64,000 bases of DNA from contig NC_057724.1 of the NCBI RefSeq assembly GCF_004010195.1, positions 12,902,417 to 12,966,416 of the forward strand, written 5' to 3'. This document shows positions 8,109-64,000 of the stretch, one piece after another (the stretch's first letter is position 1; each line of letters starts with the position of its first letter). The notes beneath the pieces were generated by a model that was not told the origin of the DNA, did no database searches, and saw only the letters and a list, made by a program, of their open reading frames with translations. The DNA comes from Chiloscyllium plagiosum. Lineage: Eukaryota. The translations under genes were made by a program, and so were the position numbers.

Positions 8109-8272
8109 TGTAAATGCCAGAGGAAACATCACCGAAGTGCTTCACAGGAGGCTCCCAAGCACTGAGGATGTCACCTTGACAGGGGACGAAACGTCTGCAA
8201 AACAAATCCCCAGCTCGGCGAACAGAACCACAACAACGAGCACCCGAGCGACAAATCTTCTCACAAACTGAG
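8109..8272 (+). mobile_element. Short Penelope-like terminal repeat (pLTR) insertion, family A
   Basis: Same sequence as 34913-35103; flanked by TAGTAAC direct repeats (8102-8108, 8273-8279). Confidence 0.75.
8159..8198 (+). ncRNA. Minimal type-I hammerhead ribozyme motif, intact core
   Basis: gca-CTGAGGA-t-gtcacc-ttgaca-ggggac-GAAAC-GTC-tgc: CUGANGA and GAAA boxes, stem II, palindromic ACGU stem III, GUC cleavage triplet, 3-bp stem I. Confidence 0.7.
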
Positions 8273-9387
8273 TAGTAACCAGGTATGTAGATGAGGAATA
8301 TATTTGATGTAACCTAGTCTGAGGTCAGCAAGGATTTTTGATAAAAGCCCATGTGAGACTGGGAAATGGGATACAAGGAAATATGGCCAATTGAGTCCAG
8401 AATTGCTGGAGAGGCAGGAAGCAAAGGGTAATGGTCAAGGGGTGTTCTTGTGACTGGAAGCCTGTGTCCAGTTGGGTTCTGCAGAGATCAGTGTTGGGGC
8501 CCTTGCTGTTTGTAATCTATACATATATAAATGATTTACACTGGAATATCAGAGGGATGATCAGTATGTTTGCAGATTGTATGAAAATTGGTAGGGTGGA
8601 TAAGTAGTGAGAAGGATAACTGTAGACAACAGGAAGCTCTAGATGGGCTGATCAGTTGTACATGGGATTCAATCCTGTTAAGTGCGAGGATTAGGCAGGG
8701 ACGAACAAGGCAAGAGAATACATGATGCACACTAGGACTCCGTGGAGCACCGGTCAGAGGGATTTGGAGTACGTATCTACCAGTGGGAGTAACTATTGCG
8801 TCTTATGGGCAGGTCTGTGGGCTGATTATCTTTTGGCAGCTTTTACACAATTTTGCCTACGACATTGTTGGTCTTGCCTCCAATCTGGCCTCGCCAGAAA
8901 CTGCAGTAGCAATTGATGCTGGTTGACCAAAAGACCTGGAGGAAAATAAACATCAGATGGCTGAGAGATACACTGTAGTGTTGGTTGTTGCTTTCGAATT
9001 GCAAATAAATGGTTTTAATAACCTATTTTAGCCCAGATGGGGCGCATTCTGGAGGGGAAAAAAACCCCTCCCTGCAGGTACGTACATAGTAGTGATCTGC
9101 GAAAGGTACTGATGCAACATAGGATCCTGCAAGACCATCAGTGCTGGTAAGATATGTCAACACAGACTGAAGAAAGACCAGGAGACTTTATTTCCTATGC
9201 AGACTTGGATCTGGGAGTCAGCTCAAGGACCAAACACCATAATAGATGCTGACTTGCTTATTATTGGCCCTACCAATATAGAAATGTTAATCTTTTATAA
9301 CTGTAGCTGTCACGATTGAGGTAGAACTAATCCAACTGAAGTCTGTAACATTAGTATCACGCTGAAATGTCTGATACAACGGTGAAG

Positions 9388-11262
9388 TGAATTAAATTTA
9401 TTGTCACGTACTGAGGCGCAGTGAAAAGCTTTGTCTTCTGAGCAATACAGACAAATCACATAGTTAAGTAGCATAGATAAATAATAGGTAAACAGCGGCA
9501 AAAACAAAAACACAAGTACAGGTGAATGTTAAGAGTTTGTGAGTGCATTCAGCATTCTAACAACAGTAGGGTAGAAACTGTTTTGAAACTGCTGGTGTGT
9601 GTGTTCAGGCTTCTGTACCTTCTCCCCAATGGTGGAAGTTGTAGAAAAACATTGTCAGGGTGGGATGGATCTTTGAGAATGCTGGTGGCTTTTCCAAAAC
9701 AGCAGGCCTGGTAGATGGATTCTATAGATGGGAGACTGGCCTTTGTGATTGTCCAGGCTGAGTTCACCACGTTCTGTAACTGTCTCCGATCTTGAATAGT
9801 ACAGTTGCCATACCAGGTAGTGATACATGCAGACAGAATGCTTTTGATAGCGCACCTATAAAAGTTGGCAAGGGTATTTGCCTTCATGCCAAATTTCCTC
9901 AGCTGCCTGAGGAAGAAGAGATGATGTTGGGCCTTTGTAACCAGTGTGTCCACATGAAGAGTCCAAGAAAGCTTTTTGTGGATGACCACTCCCAGGAGAT
10001 GACACTCTCCACTTGTTCCACCTCTGTGCTGTTAATGTGTAGGGGGCTATGAGTAACATCCTGCCAAAAGTCAATAATGAGTTCCTTGGTTTTGCCAGCA
10101 TTGAGAGCTAGGTTGTTCTCAGTGTATCATTTTTCCAGGTCTTCCACCTCCCATCTGTAGTCTGTTATGTCGCCGTCTGCGATTCGACTAGCTATGGTGG
10201 TGTCATCAGCGAACGTGTAAATGGCATTAGTCTGGTATTTAGCGACGCAGTCATGGGTATACAGTGAGTACAGTGGGGGGCACTCCTGAGGGCTCCGATG
10301 TTGACTGTTAGTGAGGATGAAATATTGTCCCCAATCTTCACTGATTGTGGCCTGTGGGTAAGGAAATGGAGCATCCAGTTGCAGAGAGTAGGGCTTAGTC
10401 TGAGATCACTAAGTTTAGTAATCAGTCTTGAGTAATCAGTCTGTAGTCCATGAGTAGGGTTCTTATGTAGCTGCTCTTGGTGTCAAGATGTTCTAGGGAG
10501 GAGTGAAAGGAAAGTGTTATGGCATCTGACATGGATCTATTGGTCCGACAGGCAAATTGGAGTGGGTCAAGAGTAGTGTGGAGGCTGGAGTTGATAAATG
10601 CCATGACCAGCCTTTCAAAGCACTTCATGACCACTGAAGTTAGGTCCACTTAGGCACAGGGATGATGTTGGCCCTCTTGAAATGGGCAGGGACAGTGGCC
10701 AGCTGCAGGGAGAGGTTGAAGATGTCTGAGAAGACCTCTATCAGTTGCACTGCCTGGTACTCCCGTCTGGTCCCATCGCTTTCCTAGGATTCATACGAAG
10801 GAAATCTGGTCTGACCTTTGTGCAGTGACTCTTGGGATAGGTTCGTTCGGACTTATCGGAATGCGAGTTTCCTTTCTGCCGAAATTCTGCTCAAAATAAG
10901 CATAGCAGGTGTTGAGACGATCTGGGAGGGATAGGTCATCTGCTATCTTGGAATGTCTCTTTTTAGAACCTGTGATGCCATTCAGTCCTTGCCATAGTCA
11001 CCGGGTGTCTATCTGGGTCTCTAGTTTGGATCGGTATTGGTCCTTGGCTGTCTTAGTGGCTCTGCAAAGGTCATTCTTGGATTCCTTATTTGCATGGGTC
11101 TCCTGTTCTGAAGGCCTCATGTCTGGTTTTTAGCAGGTTCTATATGTCCTGATTCATCCAGGGTTTCCTGTTGGGGAACACCCGGATTGACTACTTTGGT
11201 ATGCAGTCCTCCACACACTTGCTGATAAAGTCTGTGATGGTGGTAGCATACTCATCCAAAGT
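9388..11262 (-). mobile_element. Rex1/Babar-clade LINE, 5'-truncated and frameshifted
   Basis: Minus ORFs LTSVVMKCFERLV...LDPLQFA.R.NRS..DAI and LFFLRQLRKFG...LANFYRCAIKSILSACITTWYG (Rex1-type RT and C-terminal region). Confidence 0.85.
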
Positions 11263-13290: not shown

Positions 13291-13299
13291 TTTGCAAAT

Positions 13300-13990
13300 G
13301 TTTTGTCCCCCTTACCGGGTGACATCTTCAGTGCTGTGTAGCTCTGCTGGTGGTGGTGTTGTTGTGATCTGCCCAAAACTTTTATGGTTCTGTCTGTCAT
13401 GGCAGATGGTTCTATTTCTGGTTTTGAACCGTAGTGGACTGGAGATGGGGTCTATTTCAACATGGTTGTTGATGGCACCAGTGGATGAATACCAGACCTC
13501 CAGGAATTCTGTAGTTTGTTTGTCTGTCTCCGTATCATAATGTTGTCCCAGTTGAATTGATGTCCTTCATTGTCAATGTGTATTGACATGAGGGAGAACT
13601 AGTTTTGTTTTGTTGCAAGTTCATGCTCATGTATTCAGGTGGTGAGCTTCCTACCCATTTGTCCTATATAATGTTTCTCACAGTTGCTGCATGGTATTTT
13701 CATATTACATTCGTCCTGCATGGTGTGGCTGGGGGTCTTTTGTGTAATATAGTAGATGGCAAAGTGTGCCAGTGGGTTTGTGTGCTGTCATTATTCCCAG
13801 AGGATGTAGGAGTTTTGTAGTCAGTTCTGAGACATTTCCAATATAAGTTGGGTGGTCAGTGTGATGAGATGCACAGTGTCCTAAAAAAAGAGGAACGTTT
13901 ATACAAAGTATTGGCTAATAGTGGGTACCCTCGCAGCTTCATCTGTCAATGCCTAGCATACAAAACACCAAGAAGATGAGCATATTTGGT
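13300..13990. mobile_element. Degenerate Penelope-like fragment with internal inversion
   Basis: Minus-strand GIY-YIG-region remnant related to 22753-23000, plus a plus-strand piece (LYKVLANSGYPRSFI). Confidence 0.55.
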
Positions 13991-16814: not shown

Positions 16815-17900
16815 TCCAATATTCCAATTATCCCCTCGTGACTGATTACTAAACTTAGTGATCTCAGACTAAGCCCCACTCTCTGCAACTGGATCCTCAG
16901 TTTCCTGACCCACAGGTCACAATTGGTGAAGATTGGGGACAATATTTCATCCTCACTAACACTCCAACACTGGAGTGCCCCAGGGGTGCGTACTGAGCCC
17001 CCTACTGTACTCATTGTATACCCATGACTGGCGCCAAATACCAGACTAATGCCATTTACAGGTTTGCTGATAATGCCACCTTAGTCGGTCAAATCTCAGA
17101 TGGCAATGAAACAGATTTCAGACAGGAGGTGGAAGACTTGGAAAAATGATGTGCTCAGAACACCATAGCTGTCAATGCTGGCAAAACCAAGGAACTCATT
17201 ATTGATTTTCAGCGGGATGGAGCTTCCTCTCCCCCCAACCCTGCCAAACACGCATGCGCGCACTAACAGCATAGAGGTGGAACGAGTGGAGAGTCTCAAG
17301 CTCCTGGGAGTGGTCATCCACAACAAGCTTTCTTCGACTCTTCAGGTGGACGCACTGGTCACAAAGTCATCTTCCTCAGGCATCTGGGGAAATTTGGCAT
17401 GATGGCGAATACCTTTGCCAACTTTTACAGATGTGCCATCGAGAGCATTGTGTCTAGATGTATCACTACCTGGTATGGCCACTGTACCATTCAAGATTGG
17501 CGATGGTTACAGAGAGTGGTGAACTCTGCCTAGACAATCACAAAGGCCAGCCTCCCATCTATAGAATCTGTCTACTAGGCCCGCTGTTATGGAAAGACTG
17601 CCAGCATTCTCAAAGATCTTGGCCATGTTTTTCAGCATCCTGTACTATCGGGGCGAAGGTACAGAAGCCTGAACACTGTGTTTCAAAACAATTTCTACCC
17701 CACTGTTGTTAGAATACTGAATGCACTCTCAAACTTTTAACATTTGCCTGTACCTGTGTTTTTGTTTTTGCCACTGTTTACCTATTATTCATTTATCTAT
17801 GCTACTTAATTATGTGATCTGCCTGTATTGCCCGGAAGACAAAGCTTTTCACTGTGCCTCAGTGCATGTGACAATAAACAATAAATTCAAATCAATTCAT
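16815..17900 (+). mobile_element. Rex1/Babar-clade LINE 3' portion
   Basis: Reverse-complement homologue of the 9388-10430 region; ...VERVESLKLLGVVIHNKLS... Confidence 0.85.
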
Positions 17901-21502: not shown

Positions 21503-21620
21503 TTTGATGAAGGCTCGTTGGACTTGAAATGCTAACTCTGTTTTTCTCTCCACAGATGCTGCCAGAACTGCTGGGTTTCTCCAGCGATTTCCATTTTTGT
21601 TTTAGATTTCCAGCATCTGC
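21503..21620 (+). mobile_element. Degenerate PLE terminal repeat, family C
   Basis: ...aactctgtttttctctccacagatgctgccag...tttccagcatctgc; decayed hammerhead remnant at the start. Confidence 0.6.
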
Positions 21621-22579: not shown

Positions 22580-23190
22580 AGCGAGTTTTGAGAAGATTTG
22601 TAGCTCAGGTTGAGGTTCTGGATGAAAGTTTGCTCGCTGAACTGAAAGGTTCATTTTCAGATGCTTCATCATCATACTAGGTAACATCAGTGAGCCTCTG
22701 GTGAAGCACTTGTGTTAGTGACCCACATTCTACTTGTGTTTAGGTTTCCTTGTACACTACGTTGGACAAACAGGCAGAAAGCTAGCCACCAGGATGCATG
22801 AACACCAACTGGCCACAAAAAGACATGACCCTCTCTCACCAGTATCCTTACATACAGACAAGGAAGGACACCACATCCATCCTAGGACAAGCCAAACAGT
22901 GACACACGTGAGAATTCCTAGAAGCATGGCATTCCAACCAGAACTCTATCAACGAACACATTGACTTGGATCCCATCTCCCACCCTCTGAGGAAAAGAAC
23001 AGGAAATGACATCACAGGAAATAACATCGCCACAGGAAACTGCATCACCAACCCAAGGAAACCTAAACACAAAAGTTGAAAGCGGGTCACTAACACCAGT
23101 GCTTCACAGGAGGCTCAATGATGATGTTACTCAGTATGGTAATGAAACGTCTGAAAATGAACCTTCCAGCTCAGCGAGCAAATTTCCATC
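22580..23190. mobile_element. Penelope-like element: inverted pLTR, GIY-YIG endonuclease remnant, pLTR
   Basis: YVGQTGRKLATRMHEHQLATKRHD (GIY-YIG YIG-box region). 22620-22752 is inverted relative to 23055-23190. Decayed hammerhead at 23118-23151 (ATGATGA...GAAACGTC). Confidence 0.85.
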
Positions 23191-24511: not shown

Positions 24512-25090
24512 CAAAAACAGAAATTGCTGAAAAAAGCTCAGCAGGTCTGGCAGCATCTGTGAAAAGAAATCAAAGTTCATGTTTCGGGTCTGGCAACCCT
24601 TCCTCAGAACTGATATAGTAGCTAGGAAGATGTCAGTTTTATGCAAAATGATAGGTGGGGATAGAGACCAAAGGGAGAACAGTTAGACAGACAAAGGAGT
24701 TGATAACGAGCTGGCTAGGAGGTGAATAGATGTTAATGGAGACCGTTAGTGACTAACAGTAGGTAGTGTGCAATTGCAGACTGGCCTTTAATAAGGCCTG
24801 GTGTGTGCGGGTAGGGCCTTGGACATGCAGTTCAAGACCTAAAAGTTATTGAGTCCAGAAGGCTGCAGGGTCTCCAAGCAGAAAATGAGGTGTTGTTCTT
24901 CCAGCTTATGCTGAGCTTTACTAGAGCACAGCAGCCAGCCTGCAACAGAGATGTTGGCCAGGGAACTAGGATGGTGTGTTCAAGTGGCAGGCAACTCTAA
25001 GCTCAAGGTCTTTTTCGCAGGCAGATGTAGATGTTCTGTGAAATGGTTACCCAGTCTATGCTTTTTTTCTCCAATGCATAGGAGACCATA
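24512..25090 (-). mobile_element. Penelope-like 3' fragment, family C
   Basis: pLTR at 24512-24612 with hammerhead-like CTGAGGA-a-gggtt-gcca-gaccc-GAAAC-ATG (mutated triplet), followed by endonuclease C-terminal remnant (EEQHLIFCL). Confidence 0.7.
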
Positions 25091-25799
25091 TTTGTTTCTG
25101 ATTTATACCATCTGCAGTTCTTTTAGTTTTTAACCTGATATCTCTTTGGAGGCAGCATTTAGAAATTGTGTTGGACGCCATTGCTTATTAGGTTGTGGCA
25201 AGGGTCCCTCTGTTGTTACTGTGTTTAGAGGGCATCTTTTATACCCAAAGCAATATGGCATGAATGAGGGAATTCACTATTCTGATCTCGCTAGAAGAAT
25301 CTTGTTGAGTAAACAATAAAGTTTATGGCGTTACTGCAACTTTTAGCAGATATCATGAATATGACCTACATGGCTAAAGTGACTGTTAGGAGCACTGGAG
25401 CCTTAACTCTGTTTCCTAATAGCTCCTACTTTATATCATGAGGACTTGGTGGGAGAGCAATTACAATGGTGGGAGCCTATTGCTCAGAATCAATTATAAA
25501 TCCTTTTGATGCCATATAAAACACCCAAAATTGCAAAAGAACTTAGTGACGTTTAGCAAAGAAAGTGCCAATATTCTGGTGATTTGGTCTGAGCTAAGAA
25601 GTTGCAGAGCGCTTTTCCAAAGGGCAAAGTGGAGGGCAGCAGCAAGTGGGTCAATCTAAGTAGGTTCATGTCGGTAGATGACAGAAGTCACAGAATGGTT
25701 ACACACGATCTACATTCGATGGTTTAAGATTTCATGACTGCAACTATTTGTATATTATATGAACATGACCCCACTGAGACTGTTCGGAGTGCACAAACA

Positions 25800-26050
25800 T
25801 CGCGTCTATCTGCTACATGTTCCTTCTCCGCATACCTCGACATGGTCCTGTCCGCCTTAGTCCAAGAACTCCCCACCTACGTTCGGGACACCACCCATGC
25901 CCTCCACCTCCTCCATGATTTTCGCTTCCCCGGTCCCCAACGCCTTATCTTCACCATGGACATCCAGTCCCTGTACACCTCCATCCCCCATCACGAAGGA
26001 CTCAAAGCCCTCCGCTTCTTCCTTTCCCGCCGTACCAACCAGTACCCTTC
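25800..26050 (+). mobile_element. Young Penelope-like reverse transcriptase fragment running into a gap
   Basis: Open, C-rich frame: SAYLDMVLSALVQELPTYVRDTTHALHLLHDFRFPGPQRLIFTMDIQSLYTSIPH (PLE RT DxxSLYTxIP motif). Confidence 0.85.
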
Positions 26051-26332
26051 NNNNNNNNNNNNNNNNNNNNNNNNNNNNNNNNNNNNNNNNNNNNNNNNNN
26101 NNNNNNNNNNNNNNNNNNNNNNNNNNNNNNNNNNNNNNNNNNNNNNNNNNNNNNNNNNNNNNNNNNNNNNNNNNNNNNNNNNNNNNNNNNNNNNNNNNNN
26201 NNNNNNNNNNNNNNNNNNNNNNNNNNNNNNNNNNNNNNNNNNNNNNNNNNNNNNNNNNNNNNNNNNNNNNNNNNNNNNNNNNNNNNNNNNNNNNNNNNNN
26301 NNNNNNNNNNNNNNNNNNNNNNNNNNNNNNNN
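26051..26332. other. Assembly gap (282 N)
   Basis: N run. Confidence 1.
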
Positions 26333-27195: not shown

Positions 27196-27425
27196 CACCC
27201 TCACCTTGACCTCTTTCCACCTATCGCATTTCCGACACCCCTCCCCCAAGTCCCTCCTCCCTACTTTTTATCTTAGCCTGCTGGACACACTTTCCTCATT
27301 CCTGAAGAAGGGCTTATGCCCGAAACCTCAATTCTCCTGTTCCCTGGATACTGCCTGACCTGCGCTTTTCCAGCAACGCATTTTCAGCTCTGATCTCCAG
27401 CATCTGCAGACCTCACTTTCTCCTT
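27196..27425 (+). mobile_element. Penelope-like 3' end/pLTR, family B
   Basis: Near-identical to 50920-51037; hammerhead CTGAAGA-a-gggc-ttat-gccc-GAAAC-CTC at 27302-27329 (stem III mutated). Confidence 0.8.
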
Positions 27426-28644: not shown

Positions 28645-29410
28645 TTAAAAATCTCTCAACACCAGGTTATAGTCCGACAGGTTTATTTGGAAACACTAGT
28701 TCTAAGAGCGCTATTCCTTTGTCAGGTGGCTAGTGAGGCAGGATCATAAGACACAGAATTTATAGCACAAGACCGTAGTGTCATGCAACTGATACACTAT
28801 ATTGAACAAACTTTGATTGCTGTTAAGTCTATCACCTTTTAGAATGAGTTGCAGGTTTCAGTTCATTAATCTGTAAATCCCAGAACTACTTTCAAGTCAC
28901 ATTCCTGAGATAATTTAAGATTTCATTTTAAAAAAGTGATGTCGCAGCTCAGTTAATGCTGAAAGGTGTGAGGTTAGAGTCAGTCTGTATCCCAATCTTG
29001 AGTCAGATTGGTTCTATTTCCAAAGTGGGAATTTATAAAATGTTACATGGATTGACTGCCTGCAGCTTCTGTGCTTTTTGAGCAAAATAAAATGCATCTG
29101 CAAATACACATTCACCCCATAGACTTGTGTGCACATGCATGTGAGGGAGAAGAGTGTGTGTGTGTGTGTGTGCTTGGTAGAGTGTGTGCGTGAGTCTGAC
29201 GGAGTATAAGCCAGTGAGAGGGTGTGTGTGTATGAGAGAAGGTCTGCGTGAGTATGTAAGGGGTGTGTGCGCGAGCATCTGTGTGAGTGTAATGGGGTTT
29301 CCTGTAGTGTGACATGAACCCCAGGTCCTGTTGAGGCCACCCTCATAGATATCGAACTTGACAATCGGCTTCTGCTCGGTGACTGTGCGTTGTGTATCCC
29401 AAAGTCCACC
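28645..29410 (-). mobile_element. Penelope-like 3' fragment, family D, with (CA)n-rich 3' region
   Basis: Endonuclease C-terminal remnant (QRTVTEQKPIVKFDIYEGGLNR); terminal repeat homologous to 58548-58630. Confidence 0.6.
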
Positions 29411-32679: not shown

Positions 32680-32867
32680 CGAGGAAGAATGTGGTGCTGG
32701 AAAAGCATAGCAGGTCAGGCAGCACCCGAGGAGCAGGAACATCGACGTTTCGGGTAAAAGCCCTTCATCAGGAATTCCTGCTTCTTGGATGCTGCCTGAC
32801 CTGCTGTGCTTTACCAGCACCACACTCTCGACTCTGATCTCCAGAATCTGCAGCATTCGCTCTCGCC
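32680..32867. mobile_element. Inverted PLE pLTR pair with 8-bp TSD
   Basis: TAATAGAG at 32672-32679 and 32868-32875; imperfect inverted arms. Confidence 0.8.
32741..32774 (-). ncRNA. Minimal type-I hammerhead ribozyme motif, intact core
   Basis: Minus strand: ttc-CTGATGA-a-gggc-tttt-accc-GAAAC-GTC-gat. Confidence 0.6.
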
Positions 32868-34102: not shown

Positions 34103-34270
34103 AAACACAAATTGCTGGAGAAGCTCAGCAGGCCTGGAGCAACTATTCTGAAGGAGGCTCACCAGATCCGAAATGTTAACTCTGCTTTCTTTTCACAGAC
34201 GTTGCCAGATCTGCTGAGTTTCTTCAGCAATTTCTGTTTCTGTTTCAGTTTCAGATATCCAATATCTACT
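34103..34270. mobile_element. Degenerate inverted PLE pLTR pair, family C
   Basis: aaattgctggagaagctcagcagg... versus ...ctgctgagtttcttcagcaattt; decayed hammerhead between the arms. Confidence 0.65.
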
Positions 34271-50829: not shown

Positions 50830-51037
50830 GCTGAAAATGTGTTGCTGGAAAAGCGCAGCAGGTCAGGCAGCATCCAGGGAACAGGAGAATCGACGTTTCG
50901 GGCATAAGCCCTTCTTCAGGAAGGGCTTATGCCTGAAACGTCGATTCTCCTGTTCCCTGGATGCTGCCTGACCTGCTGCGCTTTTCCAGCAACACATTTT
51001 CAGCTCTGATCTCCAGCATCTGCAGACCTCACTTTCT
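50830..51037. mobile_element. Palindromic PLE pLTR insertion, family B, with 14-bp TSD
   Basis: CCTTACCTAAAGAA at 50816-50829 and 51038-51051; arms 50829-50914 and 50920-51005 differ at one base. Confidence 0.92.
50888..50922 (-). ncRNA. Minimal type-I hammerhead ribozyme motif, intact core
   Basis: Minus strand: ttc-CTGAAGA-a-gggc-ttat-gccc-GAAAC-GTC-gatt. Confidence 0.7.
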
Positions 51038-51965
51038 CCTTACCTAAAGAACCCATGCAAAGATCCAATCACAGCAGTCCTGCATGTAAATCATTAAGTG
51101 CTAAATTCTATATCCTTGTAAGCCATGGCACTTATTTGCACTTGGGTTTTGTGTGGACTTTGGACACCAGTGCAGAGAAAATGCCAGGACTGGGATTTCA
51201 GCGATGGCTTTGTTTCTGAAATGTTGCCTTGATATTGATGTACAATTGCTTAATGCATCTAAATGCAATATCTCTCCCTAGTCTCTGACAGACGTATTAA
51301 ATCATCAGTTTAAATACACTAAAATAATAGACAGGCATTTCACATCTTAGATATAATCTCTTGGAAAGCCAGTATCCCACGCAGATTTCAGGAACCATGT
51401 GAGGATTCAACACAAAAGAGAATGTACTTGATACAGAAGATATTCATTTTTAAAAAATCAGACCAGTCCATACAGATTACCAAAGAATATAAAACACTGA
51501 TATACAGCATAATGTACTTCTTTGGCTAAGGACTACTGACCAGCTATATGTGCATGCCAATTGGCATGGCCAGGCAAGGCATAGATGCTGTGAGCATGCT
51601 AAGAGAGCAAGCAAGCAGCTTGGTCACTTGGTCCAATCTTTCAGCTGGGAATGTGTTTCCACTCAAAAAGTGTCCCTTCTGCAGGCTTTCAATGCTAGTT
51701 CCAATGTAACTTGCATTACAAGTCTATGTTTCATGAGTGTGCTGCAAGATCGATCAACAAATCCCAAAGTGTCAAATTATCGCAAAACAATGAAAGCAAT
51801 GATAATCTCATTAATACTGCCAATTTCAGATCTTTTATAATAAGTTCAAGATTTAACATAAAGAACATGTGTGGGTGAATCTTGTAGGGTCTTGGGTGTT
51901 TGGCAAATGCTGGATTCCAATGTCTTTGGATGTGGGTTGTGTGTGTTGATAGCTATAGATTGTGC

Positions 51966-52069
51966 TTATGCCCGAAACGTCGATTCTCCTGTTCCCTGGA
52001 TGCTGCCTGACCTGCTGCGCTTTTCCAGCAACACGTTTTCAGCTCTGATCTGCAGCCCTCACTTTCTCC
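51966..52069 (+). mobile_element. Short PLE pLTR 3' insertion, family B, with 14-bp TSD
   Basis: GCTATAGATTGTGC at 51952-51965 and 52070-52083; truncated inside hammerhead stem II. Confidence 0.9.
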
Positions 52070-52946: not shown

Positions 52947-53271
52947 AGGGAAGGCAGTAGCATAGTGATAATGTCACTAGACTAGTACTCTAAGACCATG
53001 GGGAAAAGGGGTCTAATCCCACCATGACAGATGGTGAAGTTTGAATACAAAGTTTTTAGAAAAATCTAGTATTAATTAGAACCTGTCTTGTTCAGAAGTG
53101 ACCTTCAAGGCAGGGAATCTGTCATCCTTAGACCATCTGCCTTACATGTGACTCCAGACCCACACCAATGCTGTTGACTTTTAAGTGCCCTCTGAACTGG
53201 TGTAGCAAACCACTCGACGGCAATTATCAATGCACAACAAATGCTGTTCCTGGCAGTGACGCTCACATCCC
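52947..53271 (+). mobile_element. SacSINE1/DeuSINE-like SINE
   Basis: Decayed tRNA-like head (ggcagtagcatagtgataatgtcactagactag), core gtgactccagacccaca, tail cacatccc. Confidence 0.7.
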
Positions 53272-53861
53272 TAGATTGACTGACTACAAGAAAAGGTGCC
53301 CTTTAAGGAAGAACCCCATTTAATATGTGAAATTTGAAAAATGATCACAGATGTTTGCCACTATCTGTGCCATCTTTGTGCTGAATCATTCATCGTGAAA
53401 ATGAAAAACAGAAGTGTAGAATGTGACTGTTGCTTGCATTAATACCACCTTTCCTAATCTTGCTTGATTTCATTCCTAATTGATTTACTGTGAGTGAGTG
53501 ATGTGGTGACATTGCTTTAATAGGTTTTATTTTCATTTTATTTTCCGTCTCTGTGGAGAATGAGTGAATAATATGTCCTATGTACCATATGTGGATAGTT
53601 TTGGCTTCAACAGGTGACAAAATTACAACTTAAGACGACAAGTAAATTAACAATTAGCAAAAACTGCTAATTGTTGTAGGGGCTTGTGGTTTTCAGTGAT
53701 TCAGATTCCCTGCAGCTGTTTGTTTTTCATCAAGTGAGGAGTCAAACTGGAATTCCACATTGCAACTTGAAAACAGCATTTGCTTCGGTAAAGCTCAACA
53801 AATGCTGATCTAAATTAAAGCGCATGGTACAAACTGTCAGCACAAATGTAAGTTGCTCAGT

Positions 53862-54157
53862 ACTGCCCTCATGAGCTGTCCCACCTGTCAATCTTCCTTC
53901 CCACCTATCTGCTCCACCCTCCTCTCCGATCACCTTTACCCACACCTCCATCCACCTATTGCACTCACAGCTACCTTCTCCCCAGCCCCCCACCCCACTT
54001 ATCTCTCCACCGCTGGAACTGGGGTAAGTTGGGGGGAAGGGGAAATGAGGAAACTGGTGAAGTCCACATTAATGCCGTGAGGTTGAAGGGTCCCAAGGCA
54101 GAAGATGAGGCGTTCTTCCTCCGGGTCTGGTGGTGAGGGAGTGGTGGTGGTGGAAAC
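53862..54157. mobile_element. Internally inverted Penelope-like fragment
   Basis: Plus part homologous to the reverse complement of ~63160-63290; minus part encodes EEERLIFCLGTLQPHGINVDF. Confidence 0.7.
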
Positions 54158-54382
54158 CCAGTATCTGCTTGTAAATTCAACCTGTTGATAGATAACATTT
54201 TCCACTTAACTTCAAACACCCTTTTGTTTGGGAACAGATAATAAATTGCGGGCCCATATTCTAGACAGAGAATGCATTTGCTGTTTTTTCCTGAAATAGC
54301 AACCATAGGAAATATGCACACCTTGTTCTTTTAATCTAAACTGCTTCCAAAAACTTAAAGTAGGATACTTGCACTGCTTATG

Positions 54383-55490
54383 GAGTCATAGAGATGTGCA
54401 GCATGGAAACGCACCCTTTGGTCCAACTCATCCATACTGACAAGATATCCTGAATTAGGTTATCGGTTAGCTCACTGAGCCGATGGGTTTGTTTTCTGAC
54501 GTTTTGTCACCTTGCAAGTCAACATCATCAGTGAGCCTCTGGTGAAGTGTTGGTGTCCTGTCCAGCTTGCTGTTTATCTGTCTTAGTTTGTTGTGTTGGG
54601 TATGTCATTTCTGGTTCTGTTTCTGAGAGGGTGGTAAATGGGGTCCAGATTTAGCTGTTTGTTAATGGATTCCTGGTTTAAATGCCAGGCTTCTAGGAAT
54701 TCTCGCATGTGTCTATGTTTGGCCTGTCCCAGCTTGGATGCATTGTCCCAGTCAAACTGGTGTCCCTCTTCGTCTGTGTGCATCATCCTGGAACAAGCCA
54801 AACAAAGACATGTGTAGGAGATCCTAGACGGCTGGCATTCAAACCAGGAAACCATTAACAAACATAAAGATTTGGACCTCATTTATAACCTCTCAAGAAC
54901 AGAACCAGAATGATGTCACCCACCACAACAAACTAAGACACACAAATAGCAAGCGGAACTGGACACCAGAACTTCACCGGAGCCTCACTGATGGTGACGA
55001 AGCATCTGAAACAAACCTTCCAGCTCAGCGAGCAAGCTGACAACCTGAGCTACAAATCTTCTCCAAAATCTTAACTATCCCAAATCAATCTAGTCCCATT
55101 TGCCAGCATTTGGCCCATATCTCTCTTAATCCTTCCTGTTCATATACCCATCCAAATGCCTTTTAAATATTGTGATTGTACCTGCTTCCACCACTTCTTC
55201 CTCTGGTAGATCATTCCAAACATGCACCACCCATGCATGAAAAAGTTACCCCTTAGGTCCCTTTTAAATCTTTCCCCTCTCACCGTTAAACCTATGCCTT
55301 CTAGTTCTGGATTCCCCTACCCTGGGGAAAAGACCTTGACTATTCATTCAATCCATGTCCCTCATAATTTTATAAACTTCTTTAAGATCACCCCTCCGCC
55401 TGCAATGCTCCATGGAGAATAGCCTCCAGCCTTGGCAGCATCCTTGTAAATCTTTTCTGAACCCTTTCAAGTTTCACAATAACTTTCCTA
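54383..55490 (-). mobile_element. CR1 3' fragment split by a PLE insertion
   Basis: Tail 54383-54456 resumes at 55076 (tatcc...aat on both sides). Confidence 0.8.
54457..55075. mobile_element. Inverted Penelope-like element with GIY-YIG C-terminal remnants on both strands
   Basis: HTDEEGHQFDWDN...REFLEAWH...INKQLNLDPIYHPL on minus and a homologue on plus; decayed hammerheads in both termini. Confidence 0.8.
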
Positions 55491-56276
55491 CAGCAGATGT
55501 TGTATTGGCAATTCTAAAATTACTTATTTATGAACAAGTTATTGCTAACCATTACAGGAAGGGATTACTGAAGTTTATACTTGCTGGAAGAATGAAATTT
55601 TTAAGATTATCAGAAATTTACTGTTGATAAAGCAATGTAACAGGTATATTGAAAACTGAAATATTTTCAATATTACTGCTGGAAGTTGTGGTTGTGTTTT
55701 AAGTAATCTGCAATAATCTTACAACACCACAATAGCTCTTTTCCATGTGTTTGGATATTTTCTGTAGGTGCTGGACACAGCTCTGATTTTAAACATCAGG
55801 TATTCAATGATAAGTTTCTGTTTGTGTGCCGTGTATAGACCTTTTACATGGATACTGGGAATTTTAGATCTATTTTTGTTATGCGGTTACCCAAGTAAAC
55901 AATAGTTGGATTTGTAGAATTGGAAATTTAATTTTTTATCCATGCCTGTTTTTATTTTTGTAAATGCATGAAAATTTTTGTAAGCATGTTTGGTTTTAAT
56001 TCATGATTGAGCGGGTTTTGTAATGGTGATGAACATTTTAAATGCAGATATTCAGAGTTTGCCTTTTACTAGCGGAAGCCTAGGTTTGCTTGCATAGCTA
56101 ACTTCTGAAATGGAAGAAACATTGTTGGATACAAGACACTGGCGTTCTACACAATTTGAATTTTTACAAATGGTTAAATTTTTATGTGTAGTGTGTAAAT
56201 GCTTCTGTATGTGTGAATTTCTAATTAGAATATTTACATTTTGATATTTACTCTGGATGTACCTTAAAATATATAG

Positions 56277-56387
56277 ATAGAACATAGAACAGTACAGCAC
56301 AGAACAGGCCCTTCAGCCCACGATGTTGTGCCGACCACTGATCCTCATGTATGCACCCTTAAATTTCTGTGACCATATGCATGTCCA
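56277..56387 (-). mobile_element. CR1 3' tail, second subfamily
   Basis: Reverse complement of ~32240-32348. Confidence 0.85.
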
Positions 56388-57180
56388 GGAGATGGGTTTT
56401 TAAATATGACAATCATTTTAAACTTGTGTGTATAAGCTTGGTGTGAATTGTATTACTTATGTATATTTGGAGGTTTTCATATTGGAGTAGTCCAACTTCC
56501 AAGAGCAAATTTTCGCCTTTTTATTGATTGCCATTTGAATTTGTCTATTTGTTTGTTGTAATGATAAAGAAAGGTTTTTGAATTCTTATGGATTTCAATT
56601 CTTATTTATGGCTTAAGAATTTTTAATTTTATGATGTACGTGTATATATCGGATCTTTGAACACAGTATATTCATTTCTACATTCAGGTTGTTGAAAGAT
56701 GTGGCCACAATTTGAGCAAAGATTGTTTTTCTCACTGGGCGATCTTGTACTTGAACCATGAATTCCATTTGCTGTGATTTGTAGATACACTGACGTAAAT
56801 AGATTTTGTTTGCTAAGTAAACAGTTCTCTTTCACTCAAGATTGGGATAAGGAGTGCCTCGATTAACAGACAAGGAGGAATTCCGTCCCTCTAGAGGTCA
56901 CTAGACTTTGCAGTTCTCTATGCTGGAACCTGGAAGAGGCTGGATCAGTGAATATAGACTGTACAAATAGAGGTTCTTTAGTTTAGGGACCCAGGAACAG
57001 AGACTGTGGAGTATCTGTGCTCAAATCTTTGAAGATAGAAGGGCAGATTAAGAAAGTGGTTAAAAAAAATGCAGATCACCCACTTTATTAACAGAAACAT
57101 AAAAGCAAATTATGGTGAACCTCTATAAAACAGCAAGTATTGTGTGCACCACACTTCTGGAAAGATGACAGCTTAAAGGA

Positions 57181-58193
57181 GAGTCATAGTCATAGAGATG
57201 TACAGCACGGAAACAACTCATCCATGTTGATCAGATATCCTAACCTAATCTGGTCCCATTTGCCAGCACTTGGCCCATGTCCCTCTTAGTCCCTTACTAT
57301 TCATATACCCATCCAGATGCCTTTTAAATGCTGTAATTGTACCAGCCTCGACCACTTCCTCTGGTAGCTCATTCCATACACGCACCACTCTCTGTGTGGA
57401 AAAAGTTGCCCTTTTGGTCCCTATTAAATCTCCTCCCCCTCACCTTAAACCTATGCCCTCTAGTTCTGGACATGAACTAGGAAAAAGATCTTGTCTATTT
57501 ACCCTATCCATGCCCTTCATGATTTTATAAACCTCTATAAGGTCACCCCTCAGCCTCTGACACTCCCGGGAAAACAGCCCCCAGCCTGTTCAACCTCTCC
57601 CTATAGCTCAAACCCTCCAACCCTGGCAACATCCTTGTCAATCTTTTTTGAATCCTTTCAAGTTTCACAATGTCTTTCCTATAGCAGGGAGACCAGAATT
57701 GAATGCAGTATTCCAAAAGTAGCCTAACCAACGTCCTGTACAGCCACAACGTGACCTCCCAACTTTTATACTCAGTGCTCTGACCAATAAAGGCAAGGAA
57801 ACTAAACACCTTCTTCACTATCCTATCTATCTGTGACTCCACTTTCAAGGAACTATGAACCTGCACCCCAAGGTCTTTTTGTTCAGCAACACTCCCACTT
57901 ACCATTGAGTATATGAGACCTGCTTTGATTTGCCTTTCCAAAATATAGCACCTCACATTTATCTAAATTAAACTCCATCTGCCACTCCTCAGCCCATTGA
58001 CCCATCCGATCCTGATCCCATTGTACTGAGATAACTTTCTTCGCCATCCACTACACCTGCAATTTTGATATTGTCTGCAAACTTAATAACTATACCTCCT
58101 ATGTTCACAACCAAATTGTTTATATAACTGATGAAAAGCAGTGGACCCAGCACTGATCCTTGTGGCACACCACTGGTCACAGGGCCTCCAGAC
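57181..58193 (-). mobile_element. CR1 LINE 3' ~1 kb, inserted in older plus-strand CR1 debris
   Basis: TSGVPQGSVLGPLLF...KFADNIKI; LEYCIQFWSP. Confidence 0.9.
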
Positions 58194-58547
58194 TGGGCCC
58201 TGCAAAAGAGAATGATAAGGATCCTTTCAGCATCGAGGAACTGTTTTTGTAGATAGATTGATGAAGTTGGGCTTGCTTTCCAGGAAATTTTATGTATTCA
58301 AAATCAAGGAGGGTCTAGTTACAGTAGAGAATATTTTCATTGGTGGAGGAGAATCAAAAGACGCTAACTTATTGTGTGGGGAAAAGTGATATGAGGAAGA
58401 ACACAGTTAGTGGTTAGGATCAGTATGCAATGATTGAGAGTGTGGCCAAGGCAGGGTAAATCAGGAATTTCAAAGACAAATTGGAATAGGGAGCTAAAGA
58501 GACAAAATGTACAGGTCTATAAGGAGGGGGTTAAAACAGTAGAAATA

Positions 58548-58645
58548 GCTGAAGGAGCAGCGCTCTGAAAGCGAGTGCTTCCAAATAAACCTGTTGGACT
58601 CTAACCTGGTGTTGTGATTTTTCACTTTGTTACACCCCATCCAAG
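58548..58645 (+). mobile_element. PLE terminal repeat fragment, family D
   Basis: tgaaggagcagcgctctgaaagc.agtgcttccaaataaacctgttggact; inverse homologue of 28645-28730; truncated hammerhead-like stem II plus GAAA. Confidence 0.6.
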
Positions 58646-59034
58646 ACCAGCTCCTCCACGTTAGACATAGCTTAGTTGCTCGTGGAGAGAGCCGGAATGA
58701 ACATGTTGGCCATTTGGTCTCTTTCAAAACTGCAGCCATTCTATGGTTAGATGTACTTAAAAGTTACAACATAGAAACTGGTCTTTGGTAGCTGTTGATA
58801 ATTCTGTTGTGTACAAGATTCCTCCCACATTGTTTCACCTAAGCCCCTGCCTGAATGTCCTTTTGAAGGGTATCACCATGGTTTCAGTAAGCTGGAAGGC
58901 TGATTGTGTGAAACGTAATGTGCTACTTTCGCCTCCTCAGGTTCAGGAGGTTCTGACACCAACTTAAAATAAGTTTGAAAGAAAATTGGGACTTAGATTA
59001 CTTTAGAGCCTGAAAATGTGAGATCTACTCAACG

Positions 59035-59041
59035 TATAAAA
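59035..59041 (+). promoter_or_regulatory. Candidate TATA box upstream of the syntaxin ORF
   Basis: TATAAAA ~270 bp upstream of the ATG; motif only. Confidence 0.2.
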
Positions 59042-59308
59042 GTCTTTCTCAGGGAATAGGGTGGATGGTAGTCCAGGTTTGATTTCAATTCAGTAAATCC
59101 ATACCATTTTTGGTGTATGATTCAGCCCATTATGTACATATCAAGGCATCATGTGATAAAGGGAGAACAAAGGGCTGCTTAAAATTGGGTGTTGGCTCTA
59201 ACACACAAGTATTTGGCACTGGATGTGGAAACAAATCAGCTACAGAAACCAGACGATCCACTTTAGGAAGTTCACTCCTTGGCCAGAAAGTCCAGAAGTC
59301 AGTGAGAA

Positions 59309-60190
59309 ATGAAGGACAGGTTGGATGAGCTAATGAGAGCTGCAGAGGCGGAGAGTGCGAACAAAGTGCTTGGTGGAATTGATAACCCACTGTTTGAAGA
59401 AACAAGGGTCAGCAAATTTGACCCATTTTTTAATGATGTTTCAGCCATTTCCTCAAACATTAACAAGCTGGAAAAGCTGGTTTACGGTATCCAGAGGAAA
59501 CAAGCAAAGGTGCTTTGTGGGACTGAAAGTGACAGCATATCCAAGGTAAAGCAAAGCCTGAAAGATGCAAAGTGTGAGTTTACTCGTGAGGCCAAGAACG
59601 TGCAGTCACAGCTGGATGCGATGAAATTCGAGCTTTCTCAGAAAGTGAACAATGCCCAGCTGTCGGTGGAGTACAGAATCCGGCAGTGCCAGTTTAACAC
59701 GCTGGCAGCCCGTTATCGGGACATCCTGTCTTCTCACTACACGAAAGAAATAGAGTACGTCAGTAAGTTGAAACAGCAAATCATTCGACAGACTCAGCTG
59801 GCGGGCTTGCAGCTCCAGGATGAGGATATTGACCATTTGGTGGAGAAACCTGCAGCCCCACAAATTGTGGGCCGGGACCTGGAGGTCCTCAAAGCCAAGC
59901 AGCATCTGGCTCTTGCCCACCAGCGCCAGAAACAACTGCTGCTGCTCGAATCTCAGATCGCTGAACTTCATGAGCTCTTCCTTCACTTTGAGGTACTGGT
60001 AGCCGAGCAGCAAGAGATTGTGAACAGCATTGAGTACAATGTAATGCGCACCGTCGATTATGCCACACATTCAGCAGATCATGTCAAAACTGCAGTAAAA
60101 TATCAAAAGAAATCTCGAGTGACTGCAGCTGCAGCAGTGGTATTGAGCCTGTGTGCCTGTGCACCATGCATTGCAAAGTTGTCATCTTAA
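59309..60190 (+). CDS. Intronless plasma-membrane-type syntaxin (Qa-SNARE; STX1-4/11/19-related, orthology unresolved), 293 aa
   Basis: N-peptide MKDRLDEL; Habc-like region with RIRQCQFNTL (cf. RIRKTQHSTL) and IIRQTQLAG (cf. IQRQLEITG); SNARE motif LESQIAELHELF...LVAEQQEIVNSIEYNV...AVKYQKKSR. In-frame TGA at 59303 fixes the start; no disruptions. Confidence 0.92.
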   Translation: MKDRLDELMRAAEAESANKVLGGIDNPLFEETRVSKFDPFFNDVSAISSNINKLEKLVYGIQRKQAKVLCGTESDSISKVKQSLKDAKCEFTREAKNVQSQLDAMKFELSQKVNNAQLSVEYRIRQCQFNTLAARYRDILSSHYTKEIEYVSKLKQQIIRQTQLAGLQLQDEDIDHLVEKPAAPQIVGRDLEVLKAKQHLALAHQRQKQLLLLESQIAELHELFLHFEVLVAEQQEIVNSIEYNVMRTVDYATHSADHVKTAVKYQKKSRVTAAAAVVLSLCACAPCIAKLSS

Positions 60191-60854
60191 ATACAATTGC
60201 ACAGGTCATGGTTTCTCAGGCTGTTGTTTTGGACCCTAATAGTACTCTGGATTACCTATAGCCACTCTAACCTGCAACAGCCCCCACTGTTCATGTGGAT
60301 CACTGTATGTCTATCCTCGGATCTATGTATGTTACTGACTTGATGGCACGTTATTTCTGTGTCTGTGTAAACTGAAGACATAGCAGTGGCTTATACAATA
60401 GAGTCTGGTAATGTTCATGTTTTCAGCAGTAGCCCTGCATGTCAGTATTCATTTTGGGTCCCAGAGGATACTGGCTGGGGATTTGACTCACTGTGGACTT
60501 TGTGGTCTGTGCTTGTATTAATCTGGGAATTGTTTCCAGTTGGACAAATGTGAAAAACACCAAACAATTCAGCGATACCTGTACTGTCATTTTTAAACCA
60601 TGCCTAAGGGGTCATTTTTATATTGCTGATGGTTTCTCAGAGTTAAAATAGAGTTTCTTATCTATTTTGAAGGTGATTTTCATCCACTTCGGAGTTTGCT
60701 GGCAACATTTCTAAAATAATAACAGCCACCTTTTTCACTTCACCTTCTCATATCTGTCCTAAACATTTGCCAGTCCTCTTCACTGGTAGATCACTTGCTT
60801 GCTGCTGCGCACTGCTACACAGCTTTTAGAAGCTCTGCAAAATTGCATCTCCTT

Positions 60855-61200
60855 TCAATCTCCAGATGTGGGCATCACTGACGAGGCCAGTGTTTACGGT
60901 TCATTCCTCATTGCCCATAAGAGGGGGATGGAGCTTTGTTTTCTAAAAACAAGTGCAGTCTTGCAATGCTATTCATTTGGGTTGTTACAAAATTTTAACT
61001 CGGTAACAATTGAGGAACGGCAGTGTGTCCAAGACAAGATTGTCTTGTCTTGGAATGGTACTTACAGATGATGATATTGTGATATATCTGCTCCCTTTCT
61101 TTTTGGTAGGTGATAGAGGAATAGAATATGTGAGCAAAGCGAGGTAAAAAGACAGTAGAACTGAAGCTTTGTAATTTGCCACGCGTACCCAGTGCGATAC
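60855..61200 (-). mobile_element. Decayed LINE 3' tail, same family as 43465-44266
   Basis: gatgtgggcatcactgacgaggccagtgttta... Confidence 0.55.
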
Positions 61201-61505
61201 CTATCCATTACAGCAAACTTTGTTTTTAACTCTCATTAAACTGCCAAAAATTATATACCTCAAATACCGCAAAGTTTATTGTACTATTCTGTCCATTTCT
61301 TTTAATTTTCAAAATTTATTTGCCTCCATGTAATTGTACTTGTTCAGTCCAATGACTACATGAAATATCAACAATTGATTCAATTTCAGTTTCTCCTCAA
61401 ATGCCACTAGTAGTCAGTTGAAGGTGTGAGTGAAAAGGCTGTTTGCCAGTAAGTTTTAGTTAAGGCAAATTTGCATTATTATTTAAAAAAGTGATTTATG
61501 CTGCA

Positions 61506-61726
61506 AATAAATTTATGCTGCCGGCATTATGTTTCTATTACTCAGTGTATGTTTTTAACATTGATTATGTGGACTTCTTGATTATCTGGAATATTTGATC
61601 AACCAGCATACCCCTGGTTCCATAAGTGGGGTAAATCAAATGTTTGCTGCACGCATAAAAGATTTTACGTGTGTACACATCTTTTCTATGTAAAAATTTA
61701 TTTGTGTAATTTGTGATGGAAATAAA
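61506..61726 (+). terminator. Candidate polyadenylation signals for the syntaxin gene
   Basis: AATAAA at 61506 and 61721; the second is followed by GT/T-rich sequence (ttttctgttgttatt-like). Confidence 0.4.
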
Positions 61727-62999
61727 TGTAAGCTTTCTGTTGTTATTGAAATAGAGTTATGCTCTTACCAGGAGAGGTATTTTTATGTTGTGACCAGTTG
61801 ATATAGAAAATGTCCACTTTGAAAGGAATTTATAATCAAAATGTCAAGGTAGAATTGCTTGACAAAATAAAGAGGCAGGGGGGATGGGAGGTGCTGGCTG
61901 TTCCACATCTTTAGCTGCCCAGCACCCATTAATCTTGCTTCATTGTGCACTACTCTTGAGTTTTCATGTACTAATACCAAAGAGAATTTTAAACAATACT
62001 TTTCCCTTTTGCAATTTTTCAGAGTTGTCGGGAGCTGCTAGTACTAGTAAAAATGAAATTCGAGCTGCTTTAAGTCACGTTGCAGTCAGAAACAGAAGTG
62101 ATTAGTATAGCAGATATTTTCTGGTTCAAATAACTTTGCATCCAATCTGAATGTGAATTAGGTCTCGCAGGCAATCTGTTAATTCACTAAGAAGAGTTCC
62201 TAAAAAGCCACTTTTCTTCTACTGTGTGTGTGATGACATGAAACACATGATGACAATCCATTAAATATGGCTTTATTGCAAAAATATACTTTACTCCAAT
62301 CCCCTAAGTACTAAAAATGGGATTCAGGTTATTTGGTTATTATTAATCAAAGACTGTTAGAATAAGAATGGAAGAATGTGATCCCAAAATCGGAGGAAAT
62401 CTCTTGTAATAGAAATAATATTCAACTGTTTTGTCACTGTGACCTTGTGTATAAGTCTGTAATCTAACAATGTGTGAACTGTGTAATTAATAATATAAAA
62501 GCTAAAGATACCTTTGTCTACATGTCACTAACTGATAATTTGTGTGTTAAATTTTGCAGATATATTTGAAGTATTGAGTGCCTAATGGATGAAATGATCT
62601 TAAAGATAATGTATTGGAAGAAAAATACCTTGGGCTCACTTGAAAGGCATTTGGATATTGCAGTGAAGAGGAATATAGTTTTGTATGGAGGTATAATCGA
62701 GATGGTACAAGTGTCATCTGTACTGTGATCACAGTCGCTCCTCTGTCATGGTATCAGATGCAATAGAACTGATACTTGTGTTAGTAAAAAGTGGACACTG
62801 GCATTTGGGACACTACCTCTTATTAATGACTCTGAGTTGATTTGAAACAACCCCGCCCAATTTAAGCATAAAGGTTGCAGCACACTTTCAGAATTAGACA
62901 ATTGTGCTGTGCTCTTTTTTTTTCTGAATTCCCATTAATTTCAAAACCTATCTGACTTATAAAACTATCCCTCTTCATCAATCTTGACCTTTCTGCAGT

Positions 63000-64000
63000 T
63001 AGGAGAGAGTGAGGACGAGAGTGGCGATCAGAGTCGAAGAGTGTGGTGCTGGAAAAGCACAGCCAGTCAGGCAGCATCGAGGAGCAGGAGAATTGACGTT
63101 TTGAGCTTAAGCCCTTCATTAGGAATGAAGGTTGTGGCCCAAGAGGACTGAAAAATAAATGGGAGAGGGGTGGGGCTGGGGGGCGAAGGTAGCTGGGAAT
63201 GCGGTAGGTAGATGTAGGTGATAGGCCGGAGAGGAGGGTGGAGCAGATAGGTGGGAAGGAAGATGGACAGGTAGGACAGTTCAAGAGGGTGGTGCTGAGT
63301 TGGAAGGTTGGATCTGGGATAAGATGGGGGTGGGAGGGGAGATGAGGAAACAGGTAAAATCCACAATGATCCCGTGTAGTTGGAGGGTCCCAAGGCGGAA
63401 GACGAGGCTTTCTTCCTCCAGGTGTTGGCTGGTTAGGGTTTGGCGATAGAGGAGGCTCAGGACTTGCATGTCCTTGGTGGAGTGAGAGGGGGAGTCACAG
63501 TGTTTGGCCAAGGGGCAGTGGGGTTGTTTAGTATGTGTGACCCAGAGATATTCTCTGAAATGTTCTGCAAGTTGGCATCCTGTCTCCCCAATGTAGGGGA
63601 TATCACATCGAGAGCAATGGACACAGTAGAGAGGATCCTTTTGGGGCCTTGGACAGGGGTCAGGAGGGAGGTGTAGGTGCAGGTTTTACACTTCTTGTGG
63701 TGGTAGGGAAGGTGCTGGGAGTGGAGGGTGGGTTAGTGGGGGGCATAGAGTCATTGAGGGAATAACCTCTCTGGAATGCAGATGGGGTGGGGAGGGAAAC
63801 ATATCACTGATGGTGGGGTCTGTTTGTAGGTGGCAGAAATGGCGGTGAATGATTCAATATACCCAGAGGTTGGAGGGGTGAAAGGTGAGGACCAGGGGTG
63901 TTCTGTCCTTGTCGCGATTGGAGGGATGGGGTTCAAGGGACGAGGTGTGGGAAATGGAGGAGATACGCTGGAGGGCATTGTTGACCACATGGGAGGGGAA
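63000..64000 (-). mobile_element. Penelope-like element 3' portion, continues beyond the window
   Basis: pLTR at 63000-63130 with decayed hammerhead; GIY-YIG remnant (LEEESLVFRLGTLQLHGI..DF); G-rich plus strand. Confidence 0.85.

What the first reader, a model, noticed from the sequence alone, without database searches (positions are those of the whole stretch)
8159..63130. Minimal hammerhead ribozyme motifs recur in the termini of several Penelope-like families
Seen: CUGANGA-(N)-stem II-GAAAC-GUC with intact cores at 8162-8195(+), 32744-32771(-), 34989-35022(-) and 50892-50919(-). Decayed versions occur at ~21503, 23118, 24578-24607, 27302, ~28700, ~34146, ~54500, ~58550 and ~63100. The families share little flanking sequence and have different stem II helices (gtcacc/ggggac; gggc/gccc; gggtt/gaccc; ggagc/gctc-like), yet keep the catalytic boxes and a palindromic ACGU in place of stem III. 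Established: PLEs and retrozymes carry minimal type-I hammerheads thought to cleave as dimers, so the class is known. Inference: this genome holds very many latent self-cleavage sites from multiple PLE lineages, and these shark variants may be uncharacterised. Stem I is only 2-3 bp in these copies, so activity is uncertain.
Basis: partly seen in the sequence, partly recalled or inferred. Interest (0 to 1): 0.7.

Follow-up and report, generated by a model that had tools for sequence, protein, structure and literature searches.

The report
Penelope hammerheads heading capped shark transcripts
These motifs are an already described kind of tiny hammerhead RNA motif (predicted to self-cut) in the end repeats of Penelope-type jumping genes; this genome holds about 190,000 exact cores, and in the commonest family many copies begin just before the motif, often after one extra G, so they are likely DNA copies of the capped, uncut front of the element's RNA.

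Summary
Observation confirmed: four exact cores at the stated places, none in 100 shuffles. They sit in pseudo-LTRs of at least four Penelope-like lineages with RT and/or GIY-YIG sequence upstream. Genome-wide there are 138,322 ACGU-type and 52,621 AGCU-type exact cores (controls 619, 382). Family majorities covary (68 of 72 pairs canonical), but genomic copies decay neutrally. The class is published (PMC4209133). Beyond it: of 100 B1 copies picked by a downstream anchor, 39 start 1-6 nt before the core, 95 span the cut site and 1 starts at it; copies starting at -4 carry a preceding G in 40 of 59 informative junctions against 7 of 45 at -3. This likely marks a capped transcription start at the base of stem I and copying of uncut RNA. 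RNA reads show no ends at the cut site. Cleavage was not tested. The scan found the same reading many times on other DNA of this and other genomes. New members of a known kind, with a testable mechanistic clue.

The parts
8162..8195 (+). Intact minimal hammerhead, family A1 (Poseidon-like); AUG at the first pair of stem II; in a 5'-truncated pLTR+tail copy 8111-8269
   Evidence: 93.7% to L064; 7-nt TSD candidate at 8102/8273; frame matches N-terminus of shark PLE protein P0002
34989..35022 (-). Intact minimal hammerhead, family A1; copy 34914-35049 with inverted 5' piece 35051-35104, 9-nt TSD
32744..32771 (-). Intact minimal hammerhead, family B (Neptune-like); arm starts at -4; head-to-head insertion 32684-32872, 8-nt TSD
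50892..50919 (-). Intact minimal hammerhead, family B1; one arm of a head-to-head insertion 50829-51040 with 14-nt TSD; the other arm (50915-50942, +) lacks the first core letters
27302..27329 (+). B1 core with G16.2 changed, in a longer 3'-end copy 27194-27424
51964..51981 (+). B1 copy starting inside stem II (copy 51964-52069, 14-nt TSD)
63095..63122 (-). Decayed B-type core at the 3' end of a PLE fragment 63027-64000 with RT C-terminus and GIY-YIG endonuclease upstream
23118..23151 (+). Decayed A2 core downstream of GIY-YIG remnant 22737-23010; inverted partner 22583-22741
54498..54531 (-). Decayed A-type core downstream of GIY-YIG remnant 54604-54780; inverted partner about 54975-55070
13297..13331 (-).
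24578..24607 (-). Decayed family D core (gggt/accc, majority H17=U) downstream of EN remnant 24830-25084
21504..21533 (+). Decayed family D core
34148..34177 (+). Decayed family D core with inverted arm 34103-34144
28697..28725 (-). Decayed family C core (AGCU palindrome type), copy 28645-28878
58550..58574 (+). Family C copy starting inside the core, to about 58651
25743..26051 (+). PLE reverse transcriptase fragment of B type, cut by an assembly gap
   Evidence: 72% to shark PLE protein P0121

Best explanation
These are minimal type-I hammerhead motifs in the pseudo-LTRs of at least four Penelope-like retrotransposon lineages, and the dispersed copies are short, neutrally decaying end-fragments that were reverse-transcribed across the predicted cut site, in the commonest family likely running off the capped 5' end of an RNA that likely starts 4 nt before the catalytic core. 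Shown: PLE context, covariation between families, neutral decay within families, pile-up of 5' ends at the base of stem I, G excess at the -4 junction. Inferred: the G records the cap; the fold was selected in the source elements because it cuts when two RNAs pair through the 4-nt palindrome, likely helped by the element's protein as in the anole element; in family B such a cut would remove the cap and first 32 nt, about 137 nt ahead of the AUG, and so would work as a late or dose-dependent off-switch rather than as the step that makes the template.
For: EN ends 62 nt (A) or 157-193 nt (B) upstream of the core in many loci; RT homologs carry PF00078 and some PF01541, best hits 83-93% shark proteins; CxxxxCxxC linker before GIY-YIG in B and C. 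68 of 72 pairs canonical over 9 subfamily majorities, shuffle mean 39.8, 0 of 10,000; 30 of 32 for four lineages, mean 18.5, 0 of 10,000; includes ACGU to AGCU. Neutral decay. B1 5' ends: 39 of 100 at -6..-1, 22 at 0..+11, 27 long, only 2 between -43 and -7 (one indel, one gap), 1 at the cut site. G before a -4 start: 19 of 28 unique flanks, 21 of 31 inverted non-templated joints, 7 of 9 joints with exactly one extra base; at -3 starts 6 of 21 and 1 of 24; Fisher p 1.2e-7. An untemplated G as a cap trace is described for L1 (PMC9341517, passages). Family C has TATAAA at -38 to -41 in 11 of 14 long copies and G before all 3 short copies starting at -8 or -6. In the anole Poseidon element the hammerhead is protein-assisted, dispensable for insertion in vitro, and uncut RNA is the main template (PMC11167929, parts 1-2 of 4 read).
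Against: No direct 5'-end data: the one RNA run that mapped shows no start pile-up (single-cell poly(A) library, 2% read, weak test). Where a TSD was found, the G lay inside it in 5 of 6 cases, so target preference or microhomology could contribute. B2 copies that continue into the ORF mostly extend upstream of -4 or start inside the motif (3 of the 4 with a detected core run well upstream, one starts at about -2). The pile-up is weak in B2 (about 58 of 100 long, by eye) and absent in A1 (27 of 30 extend beyond -38). The minimum-energy folds of monomer and dimer are not the catalytic fold. Cleavage untested.
Confidence: 0.72

Rival explanations
1. Same PLE origin, but the 5' pile-up is not a transcription start: reverse transcriptase or a 5' exonuclease stops at the base of stem I, or joining favours microhomology with ATT-like target ends.
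For: -4 is also the last pair of stem I in B; G often lies inside the TSD (5 of 6); many joints are inverted with microhomology; the anole enzyme prefers ATT targets (PMC11167929).
Against: A single extra G appears at inverted joints where no target DNA is involved (7 of 9) and not at -3; TATA box at the fitting distance in family C.
Confidence: 0.15
2. The short copies are a self-propagating non-autonomous family (retrozyme- or SINE-like) rather than by-products of full-length elements.
For: 73 of 100 B1 copies are about 130 nt or shorter; identical inverted joints recur at different loci.
Against: Short copies match the ends of long RT/EN-bearing copies; joints vary widely; no tandem hammerhead arrays in the window; copies starting at -4 lack the upstream -30 element.
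Confidence: 0.07
3. The dispersed motifs are working cleavage sites that cut host pre-mRNAs and shape the transcriptome.
For: About 191,000 exact cores; 2,058 reads from host-embedded copies on a 256-nt B1 stretch, 95% running on into unlike sequence; 47 of 74 B1 copies still have intact boxes. Earlier AI notes report U6 fusions at the cut site (not confirmed here).
Against: Neutral decay; no read ends at the cut site; monomers were inactive and multimers weak in vitro for related motifs (PMC4209133); inverted pairs form long hairpins.
Confidence: 0.06

Closest known systems
Minimal hammerheads (min-HHR) in pLTRs of metazoan Penelope-like elements, Cervera and De la Pena 2014 (PMC4209133; parts 1-2 of 4 and part 2 of supplementary file 2 read; file 1 not searchable)
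   Same: Core boxes, one unpaired base before stem II, G10.1-C11.1, palindrome instead of stem III (CG, GC, AU variants already in their alignment), stem I of 2-5 bp, many solo and opposite-strand copies, several families per genome.
   Different: No shark in the text read or in file 2; about 191,000 exact cores here against about 4,000 (coelacanth) and 9,000 (Xenopus) there, by a different search; their model has cleavage making the template, whereas here copies span the cut site and start at the motif's 5' edge.
PAc, Poseidon element of the green anole, Frangieh et al. 2024 (PMC11167929; parts 1-2 of 4 read)
   Same: Family A has the AUG at the start of stem II, an AC-rich stretch downstream and two alternative 3' ends about 35 nt apart; uncut RNA as main template; no RNA ends at the cut site.
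   Different: Families B, C, D have other layouts (B: AUG about 165 nt after C3); a run-off end with extra G is not described in the parts read.
Non-LTR retrozymes (Li, Clavereau, Pollet 2026, bioRxiv 10.64898/2026.07.22.740005; parts 1-2 of 5 and passages read)
   Same: Non-coding, PLE-derived, type-I hammerhead; one chondrichthyan was sampled there.
   Different: Defined as tandem arrays with a hammerhead in each unit; here copies are solo or head-to-head.
Penelope of Drosophila virilis (PMC2377424; passages read)
   Same: Transcription starts inside the pLTR, upstream of the hammerhead.
   Different: TATA-less promoter and a 75-bp intron 46 bp after the start, ending at helix I; here the inferred start is at helix I itself and family C has a TATA box.

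Membership tests
min-HHR of metazoan PLEs | CUGANGA and GAAA-N-N-U-H boxes | tested here: met
min-HHR of metazoan PLEs | Unpaired base before stem II and G10.1-C11.1 | tested here: met
   U in A, A in B/C/D; II.1 is G-C in 7 and G-U in 2 of 9 majorities
min-HHR of metazoan PLEs | Palindromic 15.2-16.2, no stem III loop | tested here: met
   CG in 5, GC in 2 of 9; TG and CA in the two oldest families, as expected from CpG decay
min-HHR of metazoan PLEs | Covarying stems I and II between families | tested here: met
   68 of 72 canonical, 0 of 10,000 shuffles
min-HHR of metazoan PLEs | Located in pLTR of an RT + GIY-YIG element | tested here: met
   A and B: RT and EN; C and D: EN only seen
min-HHR of metazoan PLEs | Self-cleavage as dimer | not testable with these tools
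   No assay; folding does not favour the catalytic form
Neptune-type PLE (families B, C) | Zn-finger-like CxxxxCxxC linker between RT and EN (definition from 10.1101/2021.04.23.441226, passages read) | tested here: met
   L075 and L081, L329; not seen for D
Neptune-type PLE (families B, C) | RT groups with labelled Neptune references | not tested
   No labelled references at hand; hits are unnamed marine invertebrate PLE proteins
Penelope/Poseidon clade (family A) | No Zn linker; RT groups with Poseidon references | tested here: inconclusive
   PAc-like layout and flatworm top hits; linker region not seen intact; no tree
Non-LTR retrozyme | Tandem units each with a hammerhead | tested here: not met
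   No such array in the window; not tested genome-wide

The most novel reading that the evidence does not exclude
In shark Neptune-type Penelope elements the hammerhead is the capped first 32 nt of the mRNA. Tens of thousands of genomic stubs are strong-stop-like run-off copies that map this start to the base, and the ribozyme is a dimer-gated self-decapping switch that silences the element's own RNA when it is abundant instead of making the template.
Probability: 0.35. Interest if true: 0.68.

Novelty: new member of a known kind. Interest (0 to 1): 0.42.

Why it matters
The role of PLE hammerheads is an open question (stated as unclear in 10.1101/2021.04.23.441226, passages read). A genome with about 190,000 cores gives a fossil record of which RNAs were copied: uncut, and in B1 likely capped 4 nt before the core. 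That gives exact predictions for 5' RACE and for in vitro assays with purified element protein. The motif class itself is not new, and the dispersed copies look like inert debris.

Tried and rejected
Rfam scan of the window: no hammerhead, only weak miRNA-like hairpin hits. Pfam on window and locus fragments: only a weak RVT_1 hit (E 0.0055) in 1 of 5 locus proteins, none for the two window PLE fragments; PDB sequence search empty. Footprint of cleavage in family A1: 67 genome-wide copies with joints near the cut site; by eye 13 start at +1 (5 of them at a palindrome, some duplicated loci), 7-9 each at -3, -2, -1 and +2, 2-4 each at +3 to +6: broad and weak, at most about 1% of copies; inconclusive. 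Automated 5'-end calls for B2 were spoiled by subfamily differences and not used; family D regex found nothing and C3 was out of register (redone). No RNA holder listed for the window's unique gene; run X10 gave 0 laid reads, no test; host gene structure not resolved. U6 fusion lead: no Rfam hit in 20 loci, 19 of them with A1 joints near the cut; the whole-genome check was not possible. Paper searches for shark PLE hammerheads or capped run-off copies found nothing relevant; most subscription papers and Repbase/Dfam are not covered.
Full report
Observation. The four intact cores are at the stated coordinates; 100 shuffles gave none. All nine decayed sites are real and five more were found. Rfam does not detect them.

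Families. A (long stem II, U before it): A1 at 8162 and 34989, older A-types at 13297, 22655, 23118, 54498, 54985. B (GGGC/GCCC): 27302, 32744, 50892/50915, 51964, 63095. C (GGAGC/GCUCC, palindrome AGCU, cut triplet CUA or CUU): 28697, 58550. D (GGGU/ACCC, majority H17=U): 21504, 24578, 34148.

PLE context. In loci from this genome the A endonuclease ends 62 nt before the core and an RT frame lies upstream. B has RT (YIDD), a CxxxxCxxC linker and GIY-YIG upstream, and an AUG about 165 nt after C3 in 5' copies. C has linker and GIY-YIG upstream. D has an EN remnant upstream in the window. RT homologs are PLE-like proteins, best hits 83% (A) and 93% (B) from a bamboo shark. Clade names (A Poseidon-like; B, C Neptune-like) rest on layout and linker, not on a tree. 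Window copies are 5'-truncated, often with an inverted arm and 7-14-nt TSDs, as described for PLE insertions (10.1101/2021.04.23.441226, passages).

Numbers. Exact ACGUC cores: 69,314 + 69,008 = 138,322, reversed control 619. AGCUH cores: 26,341 + 26,280 = 52,621, control 382. Together about one per 19 kb of 3.56 Gb. B pattern 91,790, A1 pattern 5,727. CpG-decayed copies are not counted. Published vertebrate figures are about 4,000 and 9,000, by another method (PMC4209133).

Selection. Across 9 subfamily majorities 68 of 72 positions in stems I, II and III pair; shuffles give 39.8 on average and never reach 68; with one family per lineage 30 of 32 against 18.5. Subfamilies are related, so the four-lineage figure is the fairer one. 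Within families, copies chosen by a downstream anchor decay equally in and outside the core: B1 18/740 vs 33/1332, A1 5/290 vs 9/754, B2 5/220 vs 3/374; CpG sites 8-13%; intact boxes in 47 of 74, 16 of 29 and 12 of 22. So selection acted on source elements, not on the dispersed copies.

Which RNA was copied. I fetched tiles around 95 of the first 100 listed B1 anchor matches; they held 100 anchored copies. 5' ends: 27 long, 39 at -6..-1, 22 at 0..+11, 12 further in; 95 span the cut site and 1 starts exactly at it. Position -4 is the A of a TCATTCC sequence (initiator-like; consensus recalled) and the last pair of stem I. For copies starting at -4 (4,711 genome-wide) I analysed the first 90 listed, 83 distinct joints: G precedes in 55; 19 of 28 with unique flanks, 21 of 31 inverted joints with non-templated letters, 7 of 9 with exactly one extra letter. 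Control, copies starting at -3 (5,245; first 72 listed, less two in stretches not fetched for this set; 63 distinct): G in 9; 6 of 21 and 1 of 24; Fisher p 1.2e-7. An untemplated G is a described trace of cap copying in L1 (PMC9341517, passages). Against: G lies within the TSD in 5 of 6 cases with a TSD; B2 shows a weaker pile-up (by eye); A1 none; 5' pLTR copies of B2 often extend upstream, which tandem read-through RNA would explain but which does not confirm the start.

Cutting. Not shown. A1 joints near the cut site are rare and broadly spread (by eye). In RNA run X9, 2,058 reads lie on a B1 stretch, both strands, 95% running on into unlike sequence, with no place where many molecules begin or end; likewise on window 48600-64000. 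These libraries are a weak test. Energy minima are not the catalytic fold, and the head-to-head copy at 50829-51040 is one long hairpin. Published related motifs: inactive as monomers, weak as multimers (PMC4209133); protein-assisted and dispensable for insertion (PMC11167929). Earlier AI notes report U6 fusions at the cut site in this genome; I could not confirm this.

Mechanism. Most likely the element is transcribed from its pLTR with the hammerhead at or near the capped 5' end (B1, probably C); the protein primes DNA synthesis 65-100 nt past the cut site (two 3' ends), runs to the cap, and often does so on both target strands, giving head-to-head stubs. The ribozyme, kept by selection, would cut only as a dimer or in the RNP, removing the cap; that step is inferred.

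Verdict. New members of a known kind at very high copy number, with a testable clue about the template. The same reading was reached by this scan many times on other DNA; my note of it predates those look-ups, and they are not independent evidence. My paper searches found no report of shark PLE hammerheads or of capped run-off copies; supplementary file 1 of PMC4209133 and the bioRxiv supplements were not seen and may list chondrichthyan motifs.

Noticed in passing
window 59306-60190 (+): Intact 294-aa single-exon syntaxin/SNARE ORF (PF00804, PF05739); resembles STX19-type genes (recalled). Host gene layout not resolved.
   Followed up: partly
L185 (G000:C17:1792878): A1 copy with a run of about 8 extra T exactly at the predicted cut site; single case, slippage or RNA tailing.
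   Followed up: no
G000:C21:33061898: A1 copy lacking almost exactly the hammerhead core.
   Followed up: no
window 46187-48585: 646-nt perfect inverted repeat around an N gap; probably an assembly artefact of a CR1/L2-like LINE.
   Followed up: no
window 9473-10432 and 16835-17796: Inverted pair of an RT-bearing repeat 82-92% alike; ORF 9549-10031 hits ALKBH8_N.
   Followed up: no
B1 and B2 long copies, -36 to -31 from C3: TTTTAT in 28 of 32 B1 and TTATCT in 23 of 34 B2 copies at the same place, about 30 nt before the inferred start.
   Followed up: partly
PMC4209133 supplementary alignment: The shrimp PLE motif shares the CUA triplet and the CAC/GUG stem I of shark family C.
   Followed up: no
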